Positions 4,501 to 50,190 of a DNA stretch of 64,000 bases are shown in pieces (position 1 is the stretch's first letter; each line of letters starts with the position of its first letter). Position numbers and translations under genes: made by a program. The notes under the pieces were generated by a model. The model was not told where the DNA came from and did no database searches. It saw only the letters and a list, made by a program, of their open reading frames with translations. Source of the stretch: a virus; the IMG/VR virus record IMGVR_UViG_3300033388_006651, positions 32,001-96,000 of that record; one strand, 5' to 3'.

Positions 4501-5650
4501 GATGTTCGAGATTAACTCTCGGCACCTGAATCTTCGCGTAACAGGGGGACACCGCATGCTTTACAGACGGAAGACACTCAAGGACAAGAAAGCCGTGTGG
4601 CCGGAAGCCTGGAGGATCGAGACTGCTGAGGAGATGGCCTCGGAGAGGTCTCACTACCAAGTTCCAGTCTCGGGTGAGCAGGAGGCCGAAGGACTCCCCC
4701 TTACTGAAGACCAACTTGAGTTTATCGGGTGGGTTCTATCAGATGGATCGCTTAACAAAGCGAACCGGCAACTCGTCATTGCGCAGGCCGTGCATCAGCC
4801 CCAAATTCACGATCTTCGTCATTGTATCCAGAAATGCGGTTTTGACTGGAGCGAGTATGACCGAGACCCTGAAAAGTGTGGGGGATTTCCGAATGGAAAA
4901 CCTCAGATCGTGTTCTCCATCCCGAAAGGCACTCAGGGAGGATCCCGTGCTCGTAACGGGTGGAAAGATCTCGAACCCTACCTGGACAAGGATTTCCCTC
5001 TCCTGTTGGAGAAAGCCACAAACCATCAACTTGCGGCCATGCTTCGAGGACTGCACCTTGGAGATGGCGCCAAATATCGCGGATCAGATTGGACGCAAAG
5101 GTCGTACCACATCTACACAAGTAGAAAGATCTTCGCGGACAGGCTGCAAAGCCTATGCGTGCGGCGAGGCTTCCGATGCAACGTGAGGCACGAAAAAGGA
5201 GGGCCGGGAAAAGCCCGTGAGAAGGACGGGTTTCATCTCCACATCAAGAAAACTAGTTCTTGGTCCCTTTGTGGCAACCTGAAACATGGTGACCGTTCTC
5301 ATCTGACTATTTCCCAAAGTAAACCAGAGGAACGCGTGTGGTGCGTCGAGAATGACATGGGGACCCTGGTCACTCGTCGTGCTGGGAAGGTGGCGGTCGT
5401 TGGAAATTGCTTGGGCCGCATGATCCGCATTGGATCGACACACGACCGCTGTTACGCGATCCACCTCGTAGCCAAGGGCACGATCGACACCAAGGTCATG
5501 GGCGTTCTGCGCACCAAGATGAAGCTCATCGAAGCCGTGATGGGCAAGCGCCTCAAGGGCGAAGGGATGGAGGACGTGGTGGTGTCATCCGACAACAGCA
5601 TCGACGACATTTTCTCGGCCCTCCAGGCGGACGCAAGGAAATACGCATGA
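1592..5650 (+). CDS. SNF2-family (SF2) helicase containing two inteins
   Basis: Q motif LRYYQ, Walker A GDDTGIGK[intein]T, DEA, TATLIKN, EGINLQAA, Q[intein]CLGRMIRIG. Confidence 0.92.
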   Translation: MDLDPRLKAAHERLKEIRNETKLTLKPTPLLKTTFTGFDGEEHPFNLRYYQVQGVLHLVAMNRFLLGDDTGIGKCVAHDTRILTDQGLVPIQDLWAEGPCDLDNHPEPGTFVPATDHKVWTGARWAKIKSFYYDGDRPTKYVETRYGFTVEGSHRHPILVRTEAGEEWRRLPEIQEGDYVVVERRKVRWPQEAPDLTWEPSRAPNAKTYPLPATLTPRYARLLGYFVAEGNSANQYGFTITQYDTEIHEDIRGCLKDVFGWEGNENRANRNEEIVVSSVVLRDFLEFSGAKHVTSEAKRIPWSVMQGTQDCAVEFLRGLFEGDGHALAIGGIEYTSKSLQLVRDIQALLLRFEIVSRIAEKVIDDESYWRMTLLGDDGRVFRDGIGFVSRRKTADLQVGLDKPSNTNHDIIPHVAHLVGPLYGALKEATHVGGPNGARQGSGIKQFGDSFRNSIQHVLAGRRNLTYPKLQELLSHAADFNLEALPEFVELHRISQDHHFYDPVTYLDDGVCPLMDLEIDAEEHSFVGNGIVNHNTIQSIAALCFVWAKDPNMKAVILTNKSVVGQWALEFDKFCTPDNINVITCVGSPTKREKIYKEFEASTGPTVLIMGYATSRRDIKFLQHWKDFVLICDEATAFKNPSTQTYKVIRHLSRNASRFWALTATLIKNNLIEGFAIYSLLIPGLFPSSKNKFMMEYCLTRLQPIPGSRRQIPVIIGYRSDQIKRFKDKIDPYFLSRAKFDVAKELPVLQIKQHKCGMTRAQQAKYQEALEGLLEKDLLDEEVETTKLTALIYCQQIVDHPELVDCEGDSDKMNELFTLLTEGDLADEKVIVFSRFRKMIDKLEEVASSKKYKMKTVRVTGAENEDERKAAMQAFQDPNSDVRICWITEAAKEGINLQAAKALVFYDSPWSAGDYLQCLDDDTEILTRRGFVGRTEIRKEDEVAAFNQNTSEIRWQAIRSITDRPLAQGEQMFEINSRHLNLRVTGGHRMLYRRKTLKDKKAVWPEAWRIETAEEMASERSHYQVPVSGEQEAEGLPLTEDQLEFIGWVLSDGSLNKANRQLVIAQAVHQPQIHDLRHCIQKCGFDWSEYDRDPEKCGGFPNGKPQIVFSIPKGTQGGSRARNGWKDLEPYLDKDFPLLLEKATNHQLAAMLRGLHLGDGAKYRGSDWTQRSYHIYTSRKIFADRLQSLCVRRGFRCNVRHEKGGPGKAREKDGFHLHIKKTSSWSLCGNLKHGDRSHLTISQSKPEERVWCVENDMGTLVTRRAGKVAVVGNCLGRMIRIGSTHDRCYAIHLVAKGTIDTKVMGVLRTKMKLIEAVMGKRLKGEGMEDVVVSSDNSIDDIFSALQADARKYA
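1814..3193 (+). mobile_element. Intein 1 with LAGLIDADG endonuclease, in the helicase Walker A motif
   Basis: Starts CVAHDT, ends SFVGNGIVNHN followed by Thr; LLGYFVAEG and FLRGLFEGDG blocks. Confidence 0.92.
4340..5407 (+). mobile_element. Intein 2 with LAGLIDADG domain, in helicase motif VI
   Basis: Starts CLDDDTEILT, block B VTGGHRM, ends VAVVGN followed by Cys; FIGWVLSDG and LRGLHLGDG. Confidence 0.9.
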
Positions 5651-39562: not shown

Positions 39563-39564
39563 AG

Positions 39565-39606
39565 CACCAACACCAACACCAACACCAACACCAACACCAT
39601 CACCGA
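39565..39606 (+). repeat. (CACCAA)5 plus CACCAT and CACCGA
   Basis: Read directly. Confidence 0.9.
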
Positions 39607-39611
39607 CATAA

Positions 39612-39686
39612 GCCCTTGTAGCTCAGTGGAAGAGCGCTTCCTTGGTAAGGAAGAAGTCACGAGTTCGATTCTCGTCTTGGGCTCCA
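39612..39686 (+). tRNA. tRNA-Thr(GGU)
   Basis: CTTCC-TTGGTAA-GGAAG; CCA. Confidence 0.9.
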
Positions 39687-39837
39687 GGAACGCAGGACCC
39701 TCGTTCGAAGGTCACAAGCAAAAGGTAAAGACATCTGTTTTTCACACAGAAGACTGCGAGTTCGATTCTCGCCTTCCCCGCCATTTATGGGGAAGTGGTC
39801 ATAAGACGCACTCACCCCGCACACTCTCCTGCGTTCC
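39687..39837 (+). ncRNA. Module RNA A: circularly permuted tRNA-Glu(UUC), broken in the D loop, inside an 11-bp outer stem
   Basis: GGAACGCAGGA/TCCTGCGTTCC; TCACAAGCA; anticodon arm, T arm, CTTCCCC-G-CCA, TTTAT, GGGGAAG-TG-GTC; CACTC. Confidence 0.75.
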
Positions 39838-39998
39838 TTAATTTTCACCCTAATCCCAGCGCCTCGTAGAGCGAGGCACACGACAGCAGCTTCGCTTCGA
39901 GGCGAAAATGGCAGGCGACCGGACGGCCTGTGGGATCAAACAACCGATTTTTCTCAACCCCAACTTCAACCCCCAACGAACAGAAAGGACCGAGCACG

Positions 39999-42245: not shown

Positions 42246-44114
42246 ATGGACAACAAAGAAACACTCGGACCCGCAGAGACCATCATCCAGTCACTGCTGG
42301 CCTACTCAGATCACATCTACCACGGCCGCCCCGGCGTCGTGGTGCCCGACGCGCGATCCACGACCGGAGTGCGATGGGACCCCGTCACCCACAAGGTCGG
42401 AGAGGACGGCGTCAAGACCGTTCTTCGCCTCACGCGAAACGGCAAGAAGACCATTCGTACCGAGATCGGCACGATGAACGGCGACAATCGTGTGAAGAAC
42501 GCGGGTGCCGATGTCGGCCTGTACCGCAAGAGCGGCCTCTTCCCAGAGGTTGCCCTGTGGTTCTACAAGCAGATCGCTGAGGTGTGGACGCTCGACAACG
42601 AATTCGCTGCTCGGTGGGCGTCGTACGCCTTCCGTCAGGAGCACCGTGACCTCAAGGTCATGCTCGCTGCGTTCATGCTCGTTCAGTCGCGTAAGGGCGA
42701 CCCCGTCATGGACGGGGGTGAGCGTCTGTTCGACGACGAGGACTACCGTGACGTGGGCGAGGCCATGGTCCTTCTCCTTGAGAAGGGCAACGACCTCAAC
42801 CCGAAGCTCCTGCTTCGGATCTACGATGTCCTGAACCTGCCCGAGATCGCAAAGATCAACCACGAGCTCGGCTTCGGCAAGTCCGCCAAGCGTCCGTTCC
42901 TCGGTCGTTGGCCCAAGGCGATCGACAAGTACCTTCGGTACCGCGAGGAGAACCCGAAGCTGCTCGAAGGGCTCGTCAACAAGGCTGCTTTCGGCAACAC
43001 CGTCAAGACTCTGGCTCGGCGTATCGGCTACAAGCCAACGTCCGACAAGTTCTTCGCTACCCTACGCTGGAAGCAGAAGCAGGCTGAAGACGGGCGTCGT
43101 GAGATGGCCATCGGTAAAGCCGTGAGGGCTGCTGAGTCGTGGGATCACCTCGACGAAGCCGGTGTTTGCGAGCTCATCGAGAAGAACAAGCCTGGCTGGA
43201 AGCGGATCGTGGGTCTCCTTCCTGCGAAGATCGGGGTCACCCGTGCGGTGATGGCTGCGACCATCGAGTCGGGCGGTCTCTCGGACAAGGATCTCATCAT
43301 CCTCACTCCAACGATCGAGGATCTTGGTCTGTTCAAGGTCCAGGAGATCAAGGCGCGTCATGCTGCGGCTCTCGCCAAGGCAAGCGACATGCGTGCGGCT
43401 AACATCGCCCGCAACGTTCGGTCCAAGGATCTCAAGGAGGAGATGGAGACCGGTGCCGACAAGGCAGCTCAGAAGGCTGCTGAGGAGGTCATCAAGAACC
43501 TGCGCCTCTACGTCGTCATCGACCGTTCGGCGTCGATGCAGGGAGCACTGGAGAAGGCGAAGCCACTGATCGCCAAGCTCATTCAGGCAATCCCAGCCGA
43601 GCGTCTGCACGTTTCGACGTTCAACACGATCGGTAAGGTGATCACCTTCAAGCACCACTCGACCGCTGGGGTCGAGGCAGCTTTCCGGGGCGTCAACGCC
43701 GGAGGGGGCACGGTGCACGCAGAAGGTGTTCGGGTTCTGGCTCAGTTCCCGCCTGCGGCAGACGAGGACTCCCTGATGATCTTCATCGGGGACGAGGGCG
43801 AGCGTCGGCACTTTGCCGAAGCTGTGGAGGCATCTGGTCTCCGTCCCCTGGCCTTCGGGCTCCTCGCCACGGTGGGTCCTCGTTGGGGTCGCGGTCAGGC
43901 GATTCGGGACACGGCTGCTCGACTGGACATCCCGTGCTTCGAGATCGATGACCGCACCTTTGATGGCGACCCGTACGCCATCCCGCGTACGATCAGGAAC
44001 CTGATCGCGGCTACCCCTGTGGGGGTGAACACCGGTCGTCGCGTCGTCCCGCGCGTGACGCTGGTGGGTCAGATCCTGGAGACCGAGATTCTCCAGAAGC
44101 CCAACTGGGCATAG
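42246..44114 (+). CDS. Helical-domain plus vWA protein, Ro60/TROVE-like
   Basis: C-terminal MIDAS DRSASM..GGT..IFIGDE after a long helical region; Ro60 assignment is inferred. Confidence 0.6.
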   Translation: MDNKETLGPAETIIQSLLAYSDHIYHGRPGVVVPDARSTTGVRWDPVTHKVGEDGVKTVLRLTRNGKKTIRTEIGTMNGDNRVKNAGADVGLYRKSGLFPEVALWFYKQIAEVWTLDNEFAARWASYAFRQEHRDLKVMLAAFMLVQSRKGDPVMDGGERLFDDEDYRDVGEAMVLLLEKGNDLNPKLLLRIYDVLNLPEIAKINHELGFGKSAKRPFLGRWPKAIDKYLRYREENPKLLEGLVNKAAFGNTVKTLARRIGYKPTSDKFFATLRWKQKQAEDGRREMAIGKAVRAAESWDHLDEAGVCELIEKNKPGWKRIVGLLPAKIGVTRAVMAATIESGGLSDKDLIILTPTIEDLGLFKVQEIKARHAAALAKASDMRAANIARNVRSKDLKEEMETGADKAAQKAAEEVIKNLRLYVVIDRSASMQGALEKAKPLIAKLIQAIPAERLHVSTFNTIGKVITFKHHSTAGVEAAFRGVNAGGGTVHAEGVRVLAQFPPAADEDSLMIFIGDEGERRHFAEAVEASGLRPLAFGLLATVGPRWGRGQAIRDTAARLDIPCFEIDDRTFDGDPYAIPRTIRNLIAATPVGVNTGRRVVPRVTLVGQILETEILQKPNWA

Positions 44115-44125
44115 GAGTAAACCTC

Positions 44126-45058
44126 ATGGGATGGAGAGACCTAATCACAACCAAGGAGGAGACCACCACTCTTCCGTGGACCGGAGGACGGTCTCTCCAC
44201 TCCGGGTCCCGAACCTTCAAGCTCGGGGCCCGGCCTCGGGACTTTGGCTGGTACACCTTCGACCTCGAAGGCAACAAGGCCAAGGACCCGAAGCCCGCTG
44301 ACCCAGTTCCTGAGATTCTCAAGAGCTCCGTCAAGGGCTATCTGGTCGGGGACCGTCTGGTCCCCGATGACACCCGGATCGATCCCGACCCGGCCAAGAT
44401 CATCAACTACTCGGAGAAGGTCTACCTCCTTCCCGAAGAACTCGACCGGTTCTCGCGTGTGCGAGCCGGCCGCATTTACCCCGAGGGGCCTCTCATTTTT
44501 CTTGAGCAGGAATTCCCCCTCGGCCCCGAGGACGAAGTCATGGAAGCATTCTTCGACAACAAGATCAGCACCTTCGGTATCCGAAGCGTCGCGCCCGCAC
44601 TCGATGCGGCTTTCCGTATGGAGGTCTACCAGCGTCAGCAGGCAGAGTTCCGTCGGCAAGAACTGATCCGGCTTCGTGCCGAGGAGGAGGCACGTCTTGC
44701 CAAGGAGGAGCGCCGCAAGGAGATGATCGAGAAGCTCGGGGATGGCGCTGGCCGTCGTGCGATGGCCCAGGAAAACTTCGGTGAAGCCGCTCGGGCTGCC
44801 CTCATGGTCGGTGGTGCTCAGTACCTCGACCACCGAAAGGGAGGGCGTAAAGGTGAATGGGTCGTCAAGTATCGCGTCGATGGGCAACGCCTTGAGTGCG
44901 TGTGCGACACCAACCTCCAGATCATCGACGCAGGCGTTTGCCTTGTCGATCACGGAACCAACGAAAAGGGCGACACCTACTTCACCCTCGAATCACTGCC
45001 TGCGGTCATCCGTCAGGCCATCCGCGAGCACAAGCTCGTCGTATGGAGACACATCTAA
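44126..45058 (+). CDS. Hypothetical protein, possible E2-like C-terminal domain
   Basis: AGGAG SD; IIDAGVCL resembles the E2 G.iCL site; operon context. Confidence 0.5.
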   Translation: MGWRDLITTKEETTTLPWTGGRSLHSGSRTFKLGARPRDFGWYTFDLEGNKAKDPKPADPVPEILKSSVKGYLVGDRLVPDDTRIDPDPAKIINYSEKVYLLPEELDRFSRVRAGRIYPEGPLIFLEQEFPLGPEDEVMEAFFDNKISTFGIRSVAPALDAAFRMEVYQRQQAEFRRQELIRLRAEEEARLAKEERRKEMIEKLGDGAGRRAMAQENFGEAARAALMVGGAQYLDHRKGGRKGEWVVKYRVDGQRLECVCDTNLQIIDAGVCLVDHGTNEKGDTYFTLESLPAVIRQAIREHKLVVWRHI

Positions 45059-45633
45059 TGGAATTCAAAGACATCAACATCAAGGCCGTCGGCACCGAGG
45101 TTCTCCTCGTGGGCGGCGTCTGGGCTGGCCAGGGTCAGACCTTCGTGTGCCTGTATCCGCAAGAGGAGCAGGAAGGGGACGTTCACGTCCTCGACATGAC
45201 CCGCGAGGATTGGGCCGCACTGCTTCGGCAGTCGGACCTGATGGAGACGGAAGTTCTGGCGAAGGCCGAGGACGGAAAACTCTACAAGGCCATCGCTCGC
45301 AAGAGCCAACGCAACATCGACCAGGGCACTTCCTGGAACGTGTTCCGACGGGACGGGTACGCCTGCCGCTACTGCGGCAACGACAAGATCCCCCTTACCG
45401 TGGACCACCTCGTGCTCTGGGAAGAGGGCGGTCCTTCTCTCGAGGAGAACCTCCTGTCCGCTTGTCGCAAGTGCAACAAGGTGCGTGGCAACACGCAGTA
45501 CGCGGACTGGCTCAAGCACCCCTTCTACCTGGGGAAGTCCAAGAACCTGACGCCCGAGGTCCGAGCCGCCAATGAGGCGATCCTCGGGACTCTCGACGCC
45601 ATCCCACGGCACACCAAGAAGAGGAAGCGATAG
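45058..45633 (+). CDS. HNH nuclease-domain protein
   Basis: RDGYACRYCG..TVDHL..NLLSACRKCNKVRG. Confidence 0.8.
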   Translation: MEFKDINIKAVGTEVLLVGGVWAGQGQTFVCLYPQEEQEGDVHVLDMTREDWAALLRQSDLMETEVLAKAEDGKLYKAIARKSQRNIDQGTSWNVFRRDGYACRYCGNDKIPLTVDHLVLWEEGGPSLEENLLSACRKCNKVRGNTQYADWLKHPFYLGKSKNLTPEVRAANEAILGTLDAIPRHTKKRKR

Positions 45634-45635
45634 TC

Positions 45636-46007
45636 ATGATCGAAACAGGTCTAGTCGTAACTGACGCTGGTCCCGTCTACTGGCACCTGCCGCGAGGCAG
45701 GACCGGTGGCAGCCTTCCCGACAGCCGCTCGCTGTGGGACGTGCTGTGGGAACTCCGTAGGGAACCGTTCCTGGGAGTCGCCCACAGCCATCCGGGCTCG
45801 GGAATTCCCGGGCCGTCCATGACGGACATCACTACCTTCTCCGGGGTCGAGCTCGGGCTTGGCCGTCGGCTCACCTGGTGGATCACCAGCTCATCACACA
45901 TGATCGGCCTGAACTACGCAGGACCGACCAAGTACAACTACAACTCTTTCCCCGTGAAGGAGCCCTACTGGGCTGCGCAACTGCGGGAGTTCTCGAAAGG
46001 ACAATGA
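45636..46007 (+). CDS. JAB/MPN (JAMM) metalloisopeptidase
   Basis: E near the N-terminus; AHSHP..PSMTD. Confidence 0.8.
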   Translation: MIETGLVVTDAGPVYWHLPRGRTGGSLPDSRSLWDVLWELRREPFLGVAHSHPGSGIPGPSMTDITTFSGVELGLGRRLTWWITSSSHMIGLNYAGPTKYNYNSFPVKEPYWAAQLREFSKGQ

Positions 46008-46267
46008 ACATGGAAAACAACGAAGCACGCGTCAACATCACCTACGGGGGGAACAACGGGGATCTCCCTGACCCCGTCCTGTTCGACTCCACTGATGGCG
46101 ACATCAAGGGGTGGATCACGGAAGCTGTCGCAGGGGGTTCCGTCCCCGGTATCCCGGCGGACGGCAACGTGGATTTCACGGATTTCGTCGTGGATCGCTT
46201 CTCGGCTAACGCTGAGCGCGACTACAATTTAATTCAGATAAGACCTAAAACTCCATTCGGGTGTTGA
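46004..46267 (+). CDS. Small ubiquitin-like (beta-grasp) protein candidate
   Basis: About 87 aa, ends RPKTPFGC; lies between JAB and E1. Confidence 0.55.
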   Translation: MNMENNEARVNITYGGNNGDLPDPVLFDSTDGDIKGWITEAVAGGSVPGIPADGNVDFTDFVVDRFSANAERDYNLIQIRPKTPFGC

Positions 46268-46280
46268 CCGAAGACACCGT

Positions 46281-47243
46281 TTGGTCTACGATCAAACGGT
46301 GCCAGAAGATCTCGACCTGGATGCTCTCGTGAGCCGGTACGAGGAGGGGGCGAGTGCCGCTTCTCTCGGCCGGGATTTCGGGGTCAGCACCTGGACGGTT
46401 CTGAACCGTCTCAGGGGTGCTGGGATCCGTATTCGTTCCAACAAGGAGCAGAACGAGAAACGGCTCGATCTGGATGAGGTGCAACAGCGGCGTCTCGTTG
46501 AGATCGTAGACGGGCTCCTCCTTGGAGATGGGTCCATTGATCCCAAAGGGAGTTTGCGCATCGAACAGACTCAGGACCATTTGGGTTGGTTCGATTCGAT
46601 CCAACAAGCCCTTGGGAGTGTCGGGGCGGTTTCGCGACGCACCCCTGTCGCACCTCGCGTCCGTTTCATTAAGGATCATGAGGCGCACGGCAAAGGAGGC
46701 GCCGTCTTTTACACGCCCTGCTACGTTGAGCTCCAAGAGCAGCGGCAGCGGTGGTATCCGAAAGGAAAGAAGCGCGTCCCCGAGGATGTGCTCCTCACGC
46801 CTCTAAGCATTGCCTACTGGTTCTGTGGGGATGGTTCCTATGACAAGCCGGGATCGCTCGTGTTCTACACCAACTCTTTTTTCAAGAAGGAGACAGAGCG
46901 TTTGGCTCGGGGCCTTACCAAGCTCGGTGTTCGGGCCCGGTGTCGTCCTGTGGGACAACACCGATACCGCGAATGGAAAATCCACATCCTTCGGCGTGAC
47001 GATGCCCTGCGGCTTCGTGAACTGATGGGGGATCATGTGCCGGAGTGTTTCCAGTACAAGTTCGTATACGTCCGAGCGGCCATTCCACCAGGTTCTACGA
47101 CCGCTAAGCTGACTTTCACGCAGGCCCAGGAAATCCGGGAGCGTACAAAGAACGGGGAAACCCAGACGGCGCTGGCCAAGGAATTCGGGGTCTCCCAAAC
47201 CGCGATCCGCCAGATCGTTCGCGGGAAAGTCCACAAGCCATGA
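46281..47243 (+). CDS. LAGLIDADG homing endonuclease with HTH domains
   Basis: GLLLGDG, YWFCGDG. Confidence 0.85.
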   Translation: MVYDQTVPEDLDLDALVSRYEEGASAASLGRDFGVSTWTVLNRLRGAGIRIRSNKEQNEKRLDLDEVQQRRLVEIVDGLLLGDGSIDPKGSLRIEQTQDHLGWFDSIQQALGSVGAVSRRTPVAPRVRFIKDHEAHGKGGAVFYTPCYVELQEQRQRWYPKGKKRVPEDVLLTPLSIAYWFCGDGSYDKPGSLVFYTNSFFKKETERLARGLTKLGVRARCRPVGQHRYREWKIHILRRDDALRLRELMGDHVPECFQYKFVYVRAAIPPGSTTAKLTFTQAQEIRERTKNGETQTALAKEFGVSQTAIRQIVRGKVHKP

Positions 47244-47464
47244 AACCCAAACACGAGAAAACTCTTGAGGTAGCAAAGCGCTGCCTGGAGTACCCGGAGA
47301 CAGAGCTGAGCCGTTTGGAGATCAAGAACCTCTTACTCTGTTACAGAGATGCAATAGAGAGCCGCTACGAGACTTGGGAGATCGCTGAGGCTTGGGACAC
47401 GGATAGTCCGATGGGCACGTTGAGGCGGTTGGGACAGAACCGAGAAAAGGAAATGGGAACGTGA
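47240..47464 (+). CDS. Small hypothetical protein
   Basis: ATGA overlap. Confidence 0.45.
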   Translation: MKPKHEKTLEVAKRCLEYPETELSRLEIKNLLLCYRDAIESRYETWEIAEAWDTDSPMGTLRRLGQNREKEMGT

Positions 47465-47710
47465 AAATTACGATCATGAAAATTACGATCATCGATTGCA
47501 GGGACACTCGTGTGTCTAAGGAGCAGAACTCGTGATCGGGAAATACATTCTGGCCGGCAATACCTCCCACCTGTGGGGGTGCGAAATACATGTCTGCTCT
47601 CTTTGTGGGCAACATCAAGACTCGGCCGAAGAAACATGTCCTGAAGGGCGCCGCATGATGGGTTTTCGAATTTCGACTGGGGATGCCAAAAGCATCAAGG
47701 AGATACCAAC

Positions 47711-48280
47711 ATGAAAATTACGATCATCGGAGTCGGAGCACTGGGCTCACACCTCGTGCAAGCTCTTCGGAACGAGAAGGTGACCCTCAAGGTCATCGAC
47801 TTCGACCGCGTCGAGATGAAGAACGTCGCTTCTCAGTTTCACTTCAAGAACGGAGTGGGCAAAAAGAAGGTCGATGCTCTCAAGCAGGCGATGCAATTCT
47901 GCTACGGCCGGAAGATCGAGATCGTGGGCAACAAGCTCACGGCGGACAACGTTGACCAGCTCCTGGGCGACGCTGACCTGCTCGTGGACTGCCTGGACAA
48001 CGGAGAAGCCCGGACGCTCGTCCAGGGCTTCGCTCGAGCCAATGGGGTGCCGTGCGTGCACGGAGCTCTTGCGGCCGATGGTGGCTTCGGTAGGGCCGTA
48101 TGGACTTCCGGTTTTGTTATTGACAGCGAGACATTGGGTGCGGCAACATGTGAAGACGGTGCCTTCCTCCCGTTCATCCAGCTCGTTGCCACACGCCTCG
48201 CGTACGTCGTCCAGCGATTCCTCCAAACTGGGGAGAAGCACAACTTCAACATCTTCCCCGGCGGCGTCACTAAATTCTAG
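47711..48280 (+). CDS. ThiF/E1-family adenylyltransferase
   Basis: IIGVGALGS, DFDRVEMKN..Q, KVDAL, VDCLDN..R. Confidence 0.88.
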   Translation: MKITIIGVGALGSHLVQALRNEKVTLKVIDFDRVEMKNVASQFHFKNGVGKKKVDALKQAMQFCYGRKIEIVGNKLTADNVDQLLGDADLLVDCLDNGEARTLVQGFARANGVPCVHGALAADGGFGRAVWTSGFVIDSETLGAATCEDGAFLPFIQLVATRLAYVVQRFLQTGEKHNFNIFPGGVTKF

Positions 48281-49275: not shown

Positions 49276-49304
49276 TTGACTTCCCTCAGCCCCCGATCCA
49301 ATCT
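49276..49304 (+). promoter_or_regulatory. Sigma70-like promoter for the module-RNA array
   Basis: TTGACT-17-CAATCT. Confidence 0.5.
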
Positions 49305-49312
49305 GTTCGTCC

Positions 49313-49380
49313 AGGCTGTTTCCCACGCGCAGGTCTCACAAGCACAACCCCGGTCCGAAGTGACCGGGACACTGAAGCCT
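49313..49380 (+). ncRNA. Module RNA B: minimal module without a tRNA domain
   Basis: AGGCT/AGCCT, GGTC-TCACAAGCA..GACC..CACTG. Confidence 0.5.
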
Positions 49381-49414
49381 CCCAGACCGCGCCCTCGAAA
49401 CTACCTACAACTAA

Positions 49415-49550
49415 GCCGGATATGACCCGTGGTGGGTCACCAACCTTCCAAGTTGGCTAACAATCCGACACCTGCACTCACCCCTTCACAGGGGTACTCG
49501 GCAAAATGTCTACAAGCATCTGCCTGGTTCGACTCCAGGATCCGGCTCTA
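49415..49550 (+). ncRNA. tRNA-Gly(UCC)-like RNA with the module (about 65 nt) in the variable loop
   Basis: GCCGGAT/ATCCGGC; CCAAC-CTTCCAA-GTTGG; GACA..CACTC-ACCCC/GGGGT..TGTC-TACAAGCA; CCTGG-TTCGACT-CCAGG. Confidence 0.75.
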
Positions 49551-49680
49551 AAGAAGCAACCACTGCCCGTAAGGCTCACAAGCAAAGTAGCTCAGTGTAG
49601 AGCGTCTGTCCTGAAAACAGAAGGTCGCGGTTTCATCACCGTCCTTGCAACAAACCAGCTTTTCCACTCGGTCGCTTCTT
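49551..49680 (+). ncRNA. Module RNA C: degenerate tRNA enclosed in the module
   Basis: AAGAAGC/GCTTCTT; TCACAAGCA; D arm, TCTGT/ACAGA arm; CACTC. Confidence 0.7.
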
Positions 49681-49716
49681 AACTTTTTCACTCAGCAGCA
49701 GTACACAACATAACAT

Positions 49717-49848
49717 GGAGGACATGACCCCGATGGGGGGTCGCCCGACGGTAAATCGGTAAAACCGACACCACCACTCGCTTCTTCACGGAAGCACTCG
49801 GCGAATGTCTACAAGCAACTCTTGGTTCGAATCCAGGGTCCTCCACCA
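49717..49848 (+). ncRNA. tRNA-Tyr(GUA)-like RNA with the module in the variable loop
   Basis: GGAGGAC/GTCCTCC-A-CCA; loop CGGTAAA; GACA..CACTC-GCTTC/GAAGC..TGTC-TACAAGCA. Confidence 0.75.
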
Positions 49849-49978
49849 GAAGCAACCACCACGCCTAGACTCACAAGCGAAAGTAGCTCACTCGGTAGAG
49901 CGCGTCCCTGATAAGGATGAGGAGCTGGTTCGATCCCGGCCCTTTGCAACAAAACAGTCTTTCGACTCGGTCGCTTCT
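49848..49978 (+). ncRNA. Module RNA D: tRNA-Ile(GAU)-like domain (49877-49948) enclosed in the module
   Basis: AGAAGC/GCTTCT; AGAC/GTCT; TCACAAGCG; CGTCC-CTGATAA-GGATG; no CCA. Confidence 0.72.
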
Positions 49979-49986
49979 AACTTTTC

Positions 49987-50134
49987 GATCAACGCACCAG
50001 ATCAATCTCACAAGCAAATTGTTGGTTCGATTCCAACCTTCCCCACCTATGGGGAAGTGGGCAAATGGTAAAGCCACCGGTATATTAAACCGGCGTTTCA
50101 AAACGCAACTCCAGGTTTTTCACTCGCGTTGATC
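49987..50134 (+). ncRNA. Module RNA E: circularly permuted tRNA (T arm, closed acceptor, D arm, anticodon arm), YrlA-like order
   Basis: GATCAACGC/GCGTTGATC; GTTGG-TTCGATT-CCAAC, CTTCCCC-ACCTAT-GGGGAAG, GGC..GCC, CCGGT/ACCGG; CACTC. Confidence 0.75.
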
Positions 50135-50145
50135 AACTAACCCCG

Positions 50146-50190
50146 TCCCCGGGCGCTGCTCCTCAAAGAGCCGCCCGGGGATTTCTTTTT
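50146..50190 (+). terminator. Intrinsic terminator closing the RNA array
   Basis: TCCCCGGGCG/CGCCCGGGGA then TTTCTTTTT. Confidence 0.75.

What the first reader, a model, noticed from the sequence alone, without database searches (positions are those of the whole stretch)
39687..39837. Circularly permuted tRNA-Glu(UUC) hidden in the main tRNA operon
Seen: the order is 3' D strand, anticodon arm (TCTGT-TTTTCAC-ACAGA), T arm, CTTCCCC-G-CCA, a TTTAT linker, then GGGGAAG-TG-GTC. The 5' half follows the 3' half and the break is in the D loop. It has G73 and CCA, and is clamped by an 11-bp stem carrying the module. Known: permuted tRNA genes are described mainly from red and green algae and archaea, using BHB motifs. 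Inference: it either matures through a circular intermediate, works as a nicked tRNA, or stays a mimic.
Basis: partly seen in the sequence, partly recalled or inferred. Interest (0 to 1): 0.85.

Follow-up and report, generated by a model that had tools for sequence, protein, structure and literature searches.

The report
Back-to-front tRNA mimic beside phage Ro60-like gene
A huge phage carries a conserved 151-base RNA gene shaped like a complete tRNA written in rotated order and clamped by a long stem; it is most likely a tRNA-mimicking "Y RNA" partner of a nearby Ro60-like protein, not a working glutamate tRNA.

Summary
At 39687-39837 an 11-bp stem (12 bp with its flanking bases) encloses, in order: a D-loop/D-stem 3' piece, a full anticodon arm, a T arm, CTTCCCC-G-CCA, a TTTAT loop, then GGGGAAG-TG-GTC.

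The element is conserved at the same place in six distinct relatives, directly after tRNA-Thr(GGU). 96.5% of pair cells are kept, and 15 of 34 pairs show compensatory changes, in the clamp and in the anticodon, T and acceptor stems.

The "tRNA-Glu" reading does not hold:
- The anticodon loop differs between orthologs (UUC, UUU, AUC, CAU), and three loops have U37.
- Two orthologs lack CCA.
- Near-complete relatives already carry canonical tRNAs for all 20 amino acids, including Glu(UUC).
- No BHB motif or splicing endonuclease was found.

The element lies 2.4 kb upstream, on the same strand, of a 622-aa protein whose predicted fold best matches Ro60/TROVE+VWA. Similar permuted modules in unrelated phage fragments co-occur with DUF2828+VWA-like proteins in 4 of 5 fragments.

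My best reading (0.55) is a phage Y-RNA-like tRNA mimic of the YrlA type, possibly nicked by RNase P as M. smegmatis YrlA is. The new features are the clamp inserted in the D loop and the retained anticodon arm. Earlier notes of this scan report Ro60-associated phage tRNA mimics on other DNA.

The parts
39687..39697 (+). P1 clamp, 5' strand (GGAACGCAGGA). It starts one base after the CCA end of tRNA-Thr(GGU), which spans 39612-39686.
   Evidence: Three of its 11 pairs show compensatory changes in orthologs.
39698..39711 (+). Spacer or small hairpin (CCCTCGTTCGAAGG). It contains a CGAA motif in this phage only.
   Evidence: CTCGT and AGG are invariant. The CGAA is not conserved in orthologs (TGAA, CGAG, ACAC).
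39712..39719 (+). Invariant single-stranded motif TCACAAGC (GGTCACAAGC with the two preceding bases). It is shared with paralogous modules at 49333-50017.
   Evidence: Candidate protein-binding 'handle'; this is inference.
39720..39733 (+). D-loop-like piece AAAAGGTAAA (with the G18 G19 equivalents), the D-stem 3' strand GAC, and A26.
   Evidence: GG, TAA and GAC invariant.
39734..39750 (+). Anticodon arm TCTGT-TTTTCAC-ACAGA. The nominal anticodon TTC is at 39741-39743.
   Evidence: All 5 stem pairs show compensatory changes. The loop is always 7 nt with U33, but the triplet and position 37 vary.
39751..39755 (+). Variable loop AGACT.
   Evidence: A, C and T are invariant in six orthologs. RNAalifold instead pairs GACT with GGTC of the 5' half.
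39756..39772 (+). T arm GCGAG-TTCGATT-CTCGC.
   Evidence: Four of 5 pairs show compensatory changes. Pair probability is 0.98-1.0.
39773..39783 (+). Acceptor 3' strand CTTCCCC, discriminator G, and encoded CCA.
   Evidence: GCCA is kept in 4 of 6 distinct orthologs.
39784..39788 (+). TTTAT linker closing the acceptor stem. The base before G+1 is T in every ortholog.
   Evidence: The predicted RNase P site lies between 39788 and 39789 (inference, by analogy with M. smegmatis YrlA, PMC4201824).
39789..39800 (+). Acceptor 5' strand GGGGAAG, TG (positions 8-9), and D-stem 5' strand GTC.
   Evidence: 3 of 7 acceptor pairs compensatory; 100% of cells paired.
39801..39826 (+). 3' connector ATAAGACGCACTCACCCCGCACACTC. 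CACC and ACxCTC are conserved just before the clamp.
   Evidence: The CACTC motif is shared with the paralogous modules.
39827..39837 (+). P1 clamp, 3' strand (TCCTGCGTTCC).
42246..44114 (+). Gene of a 622-aa Ro60-like protein (helical domain plus VWA/MIDAS). It lies 2.4 kb downstream on the same strand and is the inferred protein partner.
   Evidence: AF2 model pLDDT 81. Foldseek top 10 hits are all Ro60/TROVE entries, E 9e-8 to 1e-5. VIA Z 13.4-13.7 over 413-420 residues. Atlas features of residues 95-415 point to TROVE/DUF2828 clusters at 0.84-0.86. Pfam finds only VWA.

Best explanation
The element is the gene of a about 151-nt non-coding RNA of the Y-RNA-like, tRNA-mimic kind (YrlA type). 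It is transcribed inside the phage tRNA operon.

Ends. Its 5' end is released when the upstream tRNA-Thr(GGU) is matured, because the element starts immediately after that tRNA's CCA.

Fold. The two ends pair into an 11-12 bp clamp. Next to the clamp lie invariant single-stranded motifs (GGUCACAAGC on the 5' side, CACC...ACxCUC on the 3' side). I infer that these form the docking site for the phage's Ro60-like ring protein, encoded 2.4 kb downstream. The rest folds into an L-shaped tRNA look-alike derived from a tRNA-Asp-type gene. It has a T arm, a 7-bp acceptor stem closed by a short loop, an anticodon arm and D-loop nucleotides.

Processing. The acceptor/T minihelix carries G73-CCA and a U at -1. 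RNase P probably cuts between 39788 and 39789, and 3' trimming would expose the CCA. That would give two pieces of about 97 nt and 49 nt, still held together by the clamp and the acceptor stem, as shown for M. smegmatis YrlA.

What is shown: the structure, its conservation and its covariation; the drift of the anticodon; the redundancy with canonical tRNAs; and the Ro60-like fold of the neighbouring protein.
What is inferred: protein binding, RNase P cleavage, and the cellular role (tethering or regulating the Ro60-like protein, or presenting a tRNA shape to tRNA-binding factors).
For: (1) Structure under selection. Six distinct orthologs sit at the same locus. 96.5% of pair cells are kept, against 40-53% when partners are slid. 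15 of 34 pairs carry compensatory changes. A model built from them scores 140-172 bits on the seven ortholog copies held (six distinct sequences) and 36 bits or less elsewhere.

(2) tRNA tertiary nucleotides (T8, G18-G19, U33, the T-loop TTCRA) are invariant.

(3) Not a decoder. Anticodons are UUC/UUU/UUC/AUC/CAU/CAU, with U37 in three. L090 and L091 are near-identical but differ in the loop. Relatives G006 (92% complete) and G007 (94% complete) have 52 and 46 canonical tRNAs covering all 20 amino acids, including Glu(UUC).

(4) Partner. The neighbouring 622-aa protein is Ro60-like by fold. It is on the same strand, 2.4 kb away here and 0.8 kb away in G007. This matches the published criterion for YrlA, within 4 kb of Ro60 on the same strand (PMC4201824).

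(5) Independent lineages. Unrelated AT-rich phage fragments with the same T arm-CTTCCCC-GCCA-loop-GGGGAAG-D arm modules give sub-threshold YrlA hits of 34-44 bits. Four of five of these fragments encode DUF2828+VWA-like proteins, against none of 14 control genomes.

(6) Precedent. M. smegmatis YrlA has a 7-bp acceptor stem, is cut by RNase P in vivo and gains CCA. Phage Ro60 with Y-like RNAs is documented for Thermus phage phiLo (PMC12135203).
Against: - Rfam YrlA (RF02553) gives no hit on the element even at E<=10.
- The published GNCGAAN0-1G/CGAA motif is only approximated here (GTTCGAAGG) and is not conserved in orthologs.
- The protein has no Pfam TROVE hit. A sequence profile against PDB finds only VWA domains. 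hhalign against a DUF2828 protein is not significant.
- In G006 the element lies about 7 kb from the gene.
- YrlA has no anticodon arm and joins its Ro-binding stem through the anticodon stem, not the D loop.
- All six orthologs are relatives with conserved gene order, so their linkage to the protein gene counts as one observation.
Confidence: 0.55

Rival explanations
1. It is a tRNA-shaped decoy or regulator that works without the Ro60-like protein. For example, it could be a bait for host anticodon nucleases or other tRNA-targeting defences, a sponge for tRNA-processing or tRNA-modifying enzymes, or a processing scaffold of the tRNA operon. Under this reading the clamp only stabilises the RNA.
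For: The anticodon loop changes fast between close relatives while the stem, the 7-nt loop size and U33 are kept. That pattern would fit diversifying pressure on a bait. The element sits inside the tRNA operon, abutting tRNA-Thr. In G006 it lies 7 kb from the Ro60-like gene. One AT-rich fragment with such modules (G002, 8% complete) has no DUF2828 hit.
Against: The sequence-invariant single-stranded motifs next to the clamp, shared by paralogous modules with different payloads, look like a common protein-binding handle. Such modules co-occur with Ro60-architecture proteins in two unrelated phage groups. No nuclease or defence data exist.
Confidence: 0.2
2. It is a genuine translating tRNA encoded as a permuted gene. 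It would work either as a two-piece (nicked) tRNA after RNase P and 3' trimming, or as a contiguous tRNA after removal of the clamp and ligation. In this phage it would read Glu codons.
For: All four arms are present: a 7-bp acceptor stem, G73-CCA, U33, A37 and C38 in this phage. Re-joined sequences of all six orthologs are called tRNAs by ARAGORN. The body resembles the neighbouring tRNA-Asp(GUC). Two RtcB ligase genes exist in relative G006.
Against: Anticodon identity is not conserved at an orthologous locus, and three orthologs have a pyrimidine at position 37. Two orthologs lack CCA. Complete relatives already have canonical Glu(UUC), Asp(GUC), Lys(UUU) and Met(CAU) tRNAs. There is no BHB motif and no splicing endonuclease. 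G007 has the element but no RtcB or Rnl2-type ligase. The ARAGORN test is lenient. About 60 extra nucleotides would sit in the D loop of a two-piece form.
Confidence: 0.1
3. It is a decaying scar: two fragments of duplicated tRNA-Asp-type genes left by rearrangement in a tRNA array rich in homing endonucleases, with no function.
For: The body resembles the adjacent tRNA-Asp. A partial second D arm (GTC-ATAA-GAC) follows the 5' half, as expected after tandem duplication plus deletion. LAGLIDADG and HNH genes are nearby.
Against: Compensatory changes in four helices and 96.5% pairing across orthologs whose partner proteins are only 69-73% identical cannot arise in a neutral scar. The long-range clamp also covaries.
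Confidence: 0.04

Closest known systems
YrlA (Y RNA-like A; Rfam RF02553; Chen et al. 2014, PMC4201824), especially M. smegmatis YrlA
   Same: The 5' and 3' ends pair into a stem. The order is T arm, then a closed acceptor-like stem-loop, then the D side, which is a circular permutation of tRNA. It is encoded near a Ro60-type gene on the same strand. M. smegmatis YrlA has a 7-bp acceptor stem, is cut by RNase P and ends in CCA.
   Different: There is no hit to the Rfam model. A full anticodon arm with a 7-nt loop is retained. The clamp is joined through the D loop, not the anticodon stem. G73-CCA is encoded. The GNCGAAN0-1G motif is replaced by an invariant GGUCACAAGC. The partner protein is not recognisable as TROVE by sequence.
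Thermus phage phiLo Ro60 with Yrl1/Yrl2 (PMC12135203; PDB 9KOP, 9L5Y)
   Same: A phage-encoded Ro60 homolog with Y-like RNAs encoded upstream of it. 9KOP is the top Foldseek match of the protein encoded here.
   Different: The phiLo Yrls are described as stem-bulge-stem RNAs with a CGAA motif. The parts of the paper I read mention no tRNA-like cloverleaf.
D. radiodurans Yrn1 (Chen et al. 2014)
   Same: It is a Y RNA modelled with a T arm and a possible 'anticodon arm', so Y RNAs with different tRNA permutations are already known.
   Different: Its loop is 6 nt, it has no clear D arm, and it has no acceptor stem with CCA.
Circularly permuted tRNA genes of Cyanidioschyzon merolae and other algae/archaea
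   Same: The 3' half is encoded upstream of the 5' half, with the acceptor ends joined by a short linker.
   Different: None of these holds here.
Two-piece (permuted) tmRNA of alphaproteobacteria and cyanobacteria
   Same: A permuted gene order whose product stays as two base-paired pieces ending in CCA.
   Different: There is no G3-U70 alanine identity (here G3-C70), no tag reading frame, and no ARAGORN tmRNA call.

Membership tests
YrlA / Y RNA-like (RF02553) | Score at or above the Rfam gathering threshold (69 bits) | tested here: not met
   No YrlA match on 39670-39860 even at E<=10. Look-alike modules in other phages reach only 34-44 bits.
YrlA / Y RNA-like (RF02553) | tRNA-like domain in the order T arm, closed acceptor-like stem-loop, D side, enclosed by a stem formed by the RNA's own ends | tested here: met
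   The T, acceptor and clamp helices covary. The D pairing itself is invariant and therefore unproven.
YrlA / Y RNA-like (RF02553) | GNCGAAN0-1G motif near the 5' end | tested here: not met
   This phage has GTTCGAAGG, with one extra base. Orthologs have TTTGAAGG, TTTCGAGG and TACACAGG.
YrlA / Y RNA-like (RF02553) | Encoded within 4 kb of the Ro60 gene, on the same strand | tested here: met
   The distance is 2.4 kb in this window and about 0.8 kb in G007, but about 7 kb in G006.
YrlA / Y RNA-like (RF02553) | The neighbouring protein is a Ro60 (TROVE) ortholog | tested here: inconclusive
   By fold, yes and by Atlas features, yes. By Pfam TROVE, no, and by sequence profile against PDB, only VWA.
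YrlA / Y RNA-like (RF02553) | The anticodon loop is replaced by the Ro-binding stem (no anticodon arm) | tested here: not met
   A complete 5-bp/7-nt anticodon arm is present and covaries.
YrlA / Y RNA-like (RF02553) | The RNA is bound by Ro60 in vivo | not testable with these tools
   This needs pull-down or EMSA.
Permuted tRNA genes (algal/archaeal type) | 3' half upstream of 5' half in one transcription unit | tested here: met
Permuted tRNA genes (algal/archaeal type) | Bulge-helix-bulge motif at the junction to be processed | tested here: not met
   The clamp is an uninterrupted 11-12 bp helix. No arrangement of a 3-nt bulge, 4 bp and a 3-nt bulge appears in the sequence or the consensus fold.
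Permuted tRNA genes (algal/archaeal type) | Splicing endonuclease available | tested here: not met
   PF01974 is absent from G000, G006 and G007, while the archaeal controls are positive. The host was not examined.
Permuted tRNA genes (algal/archaeal type) | Anticodon and identity conserved between orthologs | tested here: not met
   UUC, UUU, AUC and CAU occur at the same locus.
Canonical tRNA (RF00005) | Full-length match including the acceptor stem | tested here: not met
   Only model positions 9-63 match, at 30.2 bits. ARAGORN makes no call on the native order.
Two-piece tmRNA | G3-U70 pair and a tag reading frame | tested here: not met
   The pair is G3-C70, and ARAGORN finds no tmRNA.

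The most novel reading that the evidence does not exclude
Huge phages may make two-piece, CCA-ended, possibly aminoacylatable tRNA look-alikes. The pieces would be held together by a protein-binding clamp inserted in the D loop, and the anticodon loop would be under diversifying rather than decoding selection. One conserved 'handle' is grafted onto tRNA scaffolds at different positions: the D loop here, and the variable region at 49987-50135. That would make a modular RNP family in which a Ro60-like ring is aimed at, or baited by, tRNA-recognising host factors such as anticodon nucleases.
Probability: 0.15. Interest if true: 0.85.

Novelty: new variant of a known kind. Interest (0 to 1): 0.55.

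Why it matters
Y RNAs that mimic tRNA are known from bacteria and a few phages, but what the tRNA-like part does is still open. This version keeps all four tRNA arms and an encoded CCA, attaches the clamp at a different point of the cloverleaf, and is partnered with a Ro60-like protein that sequence models do not recognise. Three consequences follow:
- Ro60-type RNPs are probably much commoner in large phages than annotation suggests.
- The tRNA shape, not a decoding identity, is what selection keeps.
- There is now a defined 151-nt RNA and a 622-aa protein on which binding, RNase P cleavage and charging can be tested directly.

It also warns annotators that such elements are neither broken tRNAs nor hidden isoacceptors.

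Tried and rejected
- Rfam YrlA on the element: no hit.
- Pfam TROVE on the genome and on the protein: no hit.
- Sequence profile of the protein family against PDB: only VWA domains.
- hhalign of the family against a DUF2828 protein from L117: only a 29-column MIDAS stretch, probability 8.5%, not significant.
- TROVE and the 622-aa protein itself were not found in the five AT-rich fragments. These fragments are 8-42% complete, so this says little.
- Rnl2-type ligase was absent from G000, G006 and G007, and RtcB was found only in G006, so there is no consistent phage ligase for a circular-intermediate route.
- ARAGORN on re-joined halves works for all orthologs but is a weak test, because 74 of 200 shuffled 5' halves also passed.
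- tmRNA was rejected: G3-C70, no tag frame, no ARAGORN call.
- A protein-coding reading of the overlapping ORFs (39626-39841 on the + strand, 39657-39881 on the - strand) was rejected, because the variation follows base pairs and not codons.
- The first IMG/VR pattern scan returned mostly unrelated hairpins; only 5 of 50 loci were true look-alikes.
- Phage GenBank records have no DNA match to the element itself, only matches to the flanking tRNAs, and only one protein homolog of the 622-aa protein, in Virus Rctr197k, unannotated.

Full report
**Context.** The window is bases 32001-96000 of a 146.8-kb IMG/VR virus record. CheckV estimates it as 28% complete, and its GC content is about 58%. Relatives are phages of 0.5-0.6 Mb. 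The window holds about 22 tRNA genes. The finding lies in the main operon, between tRNA-Thr(GGU) at 39612-39686 and an Asp-rich leader followed by tRNA-Asp x2.

**Observation.**
- Clamp: 39687-39697 pairs with 39827-39837. It is perfect over 11 bp, and over 12 bp counting A39686/T39838.
- D-loop-like AAAAGGTAAA plus GAC: 39720-39732.
- Anticodon arm: 39734-39750.
- T arm: 39756-39772.
- CTTCCCC-G-CCA: 39773-39783, followed by TTTAT.
- GGGGAAG-TG-GTC: 39789-39800.

Rfam's tRNA model matches only model positions 9-63, at 30.2 bits. ARAGORN finds nothing in the native order but calls tRNA-Glu(ttc) once the halves are swapped. I do not lean on that result, because 74 of 200 shuffled 5' halves also gave calls.

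**Orthologs and covariation.** I searched with the neighbouring protein and with DNA patterns in IMG/VR and in metagenomes. These gave the same element at the same place, starting right after the CCA of tRNA-Thr(GGU), in these loci:
- L058, which is the same sequence as in L052, L053 and L089;
- L057;
- L088;
- L090, identical to L092;
- L091;
- L093, identical to ours.

On the six distinct sequences (alignment A2) the drawn structure keeps 96.5% of pair cells, against 40-53% when partners are slid by 1-3 columns. 15 of 34 pairs carry compensatory changes: anticodon stem 5/5, T stem 4/5, acceptor 3/7, clamp 3/11. RNAalifold independently recovers the clamp and the anticodon, T and acceptor helices. 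A covariance model built from A2 scores 140-172 bits on these loci and 36 bits or less on anything else.

The 3-bp D stem GTC/GAC never varies. Other GTC/GAC partners exist: a local GTC-N3-4-GAC hairpin, the upstream GGTC, and the variable-loop GACT. 'Broken in the D loop' is the most tRNA-like reading, but it is not proven. Energetically, a cloverleaf-compatible fold lies within 0.7 kcal/mol of the MFE.

**Is it a tRNA-Glu?** No.
- The nominal anticodons at this one orthologous locus are UUC (ours), UUU (L090), UUC (L091), AUC (L057), CAU (L088) and CAU (L058). L090, L091 and L088 have U37.
- L090 and L091 are otherwise nearly identical. The loop changes faster than the rest, while loop length, U33 and the stem are kept.
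- L088 and L058 have no CCA.
- The body is closest to the adjacent tRNA-Asp(GUC): GGGG..TGGTC..GAC, loop CTGTCAC, GCCA. This suggests origin from a duplicated Asp-type gene followed by drift of position 34.
- The 92-94% complete relatives G006 and G007 have 52 and 46 canonical tRNAs for all 20 amino acids, including Glu(UUC), Glu(CUC), Asp(GUC), Lys(UUU) and four CAU tRNAs. The element fills no gap.
- There is no BHB motif.
- No splicing endonuclease is encoded in G000, G006 or G007.
- G007 has neither RtcB nor an Rnl2-type ligase.

**The neighbour.** 2.4 kb downstream on the same strand lies a 622-aa protein (42246-44114). At least 1493 homologs passed E<=0.001 among the 8000 scored candidates; the 120 listed are 599-699 aa, and sources name most of them 'hypothetical protein' or give no name. 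Pfam sees only a VWA domain. An AlphaFold model has pLDDT 81.
- The ten best Foldseek matches in PDB are all Ro60/TROVE entries (9KOP, 1YVP, 2NVO, 9L5Y and others), with E 9e-8 to 1e-5 over 540-618 columns. They rank ahead of VWA-only hits.
- VIA-align gives Z 13.4-13.7 over 413-420 residues spanning almost the whole model.
- The helical part alone (residues 95-415) is nearest to TROVE and DUF2828 clusters in the ESM Atlas, at 0.84-0.86, which counts only as a lead.
- Sequence-level tests fail.

I take 'Ro60-architecture protein' as likely, at roughly 75%. The gene heads a conserved block: a 310-aa protein, HNH, JAB, a small protein and ThiF.

**Literature.**
- YrlA RNAs are tRNA-like Y RNAs encoded within 4 kb of Ro60 on the same strand in 254 bacteria and 22 phages. 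They are tRNAs permuted so that the acceptor stem is closed.
- M. smegmatis YrlA has a 7-bp acceptor stem, is cleaved by RNase P in vivo, and its 5' half gains CCA.
- D. radiodurans Yrn1 shows a different permutation, with an 'anticodon arm' (PMC4201824).
- Thermus phage phiLo Ro60 binds two upstream Y-like RNAs (PMC12135203).

I found no paper describing permuted tRNA genes in phages.

**Wider family.**
- The same genome holds paralogous modules at 49276-50190 that share the YACAAGC and CACTC motifs next to a clamp.
- One paralog, at 49987-50135, has the same acceptor stem (CTTCCCC-ACCTAT-GGGGAAG) but the order T arm, acceptor, D arm, anticodon arm. Its orthologs have covarying clamps and non-canonical loops.
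- Unrelated AT-rich phage fragments (L001, L018, L022, L023, L024) carry modules of the form T arm-CTTCCCC-GCCA-xTTAT-GGGGAAG-D arm. These are framed by a clamp plus CUAACAGCAA and give sub-threshold YrlA hits.
- Four of those five fragments encode DUF2828+DUF7788 (VWA-like, MIDAS) proteins, against none of 14 control genomes.

So permuted tRNA-like modules travel with Ro60-architecture proteins in at least two phage groups. Earlier notes of this scan describe the same association on other DNA. I treated them as leads and tested the DUF2828 link and the Ro60-like fold myself.

**Verdict.** The element is a real, conserved, permuted tRNA-shaped RNA. It is most probably a Y-RNA-like mimic that docks a Ro60-like protein through the clamp and the adjacent invariant motifs. 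It may be nicked by RNase P at 39788/39789 into a two-piece, CCA-ended form. It fails several formal YrlA membership tests: the Rfam score, the GNCGAA motif and the absence of an anticodon arm. I therefore file it as a new variant of that kind and not as a member. Binding, cleavage and function remain inferred.

Noticed in passing
window 49276-50190: A cluster of paralogous modules shares YACAAGC(A) and (TTTTT)CACTC motifs beside covarying clamps. One is a second permuted tRNA-like RNA at 49987-50135 with clamp GATCAACGC/GCGTTGATC. Its order is T arm, CTTCCCC-ACCTAT-GGGGAAG, an intact D arm, an anticodon arm with loop ATATTAA, then a small hairpin. Orthologs in L051, L052 and L095 keep the design with other loops, some without U33.
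   Followed up: partly
window 42246-48280: The Ro60-like 622-aa gene heads a conserved block: a 310-aa protein of unknown function, HNH, a JAB-like protein, a small protein and ThiF (E1-like), interrupted by LAGLIDADG genes. The same order is seen in L093, L095 and L097.
   Followed up: partly
window 49581-49650 and 49877-49948: Two tRNA-format sequences have a 5' acceptor strand that is part of the CACAAGC(A/G)AAAG motif. The first has loop CCTGAAA (C33) and a degenerate T loop, and ARAGORN does not call it.
   Followed up: no
window 39838-39880: The 3' flank of the element (TTAATTTTCACCCTAATCCCAGC plus hairpin GCCTCG-TAGAG-CGAGGC) is conserved in L057, L090 and L091. It may be a further processing or regulatory element ahead of the Asp-rich leader at about 39999.
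   Followed up: no
window 39563-39600: A run of CACCAA/CAACAC-type short repeats fills the spacer between tRNA-Thr(CGU) and tRNA-Thr(GGU).
   Followed up: no
L022 6990-7700: A tandem array of at least six clamp modules of the form [stem]-CUAACAGCAA-payload-AAAAU-[stem]-CUGUUAAGUUUUAG. Payloads are permuted tRNA-like domains, a tRNA lacking its acceptor stem, or nothing. Payload-less units give weak hits to Dictyostelium Class I RNA (22.6 bits here; 34.4 bits in L018 at 4869-4925, against a gathering score of 41.5).
   Followed up: partly
L024 2217-2605 (- strand): Inside a phage tRNA array there is a 301-nt match to bacterial RNase P RNA class A (52 bits, E 3e-13, below the gathering score of 100) next to a short tmRNA-model match (28.9 bits). 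It may be a reduced phage-encoded RNase P RNA or another tRNA-related RNA.
   Followed up: no
L018 7545-8034: A GOLLD RNA (188.5 bits, above the gathering score) lies in the same phage tRNA array as the permuted tRNA-like modules. One permuted module (7620) lies inside it.
   Followed up: no
G006 (L099-L107) and L055 17757-17831: Ordinary-format tRNAs with an A34 anticodon, Asp(AUC), occur in these phages. G007 has Asn(AUU).
   Followed up: no
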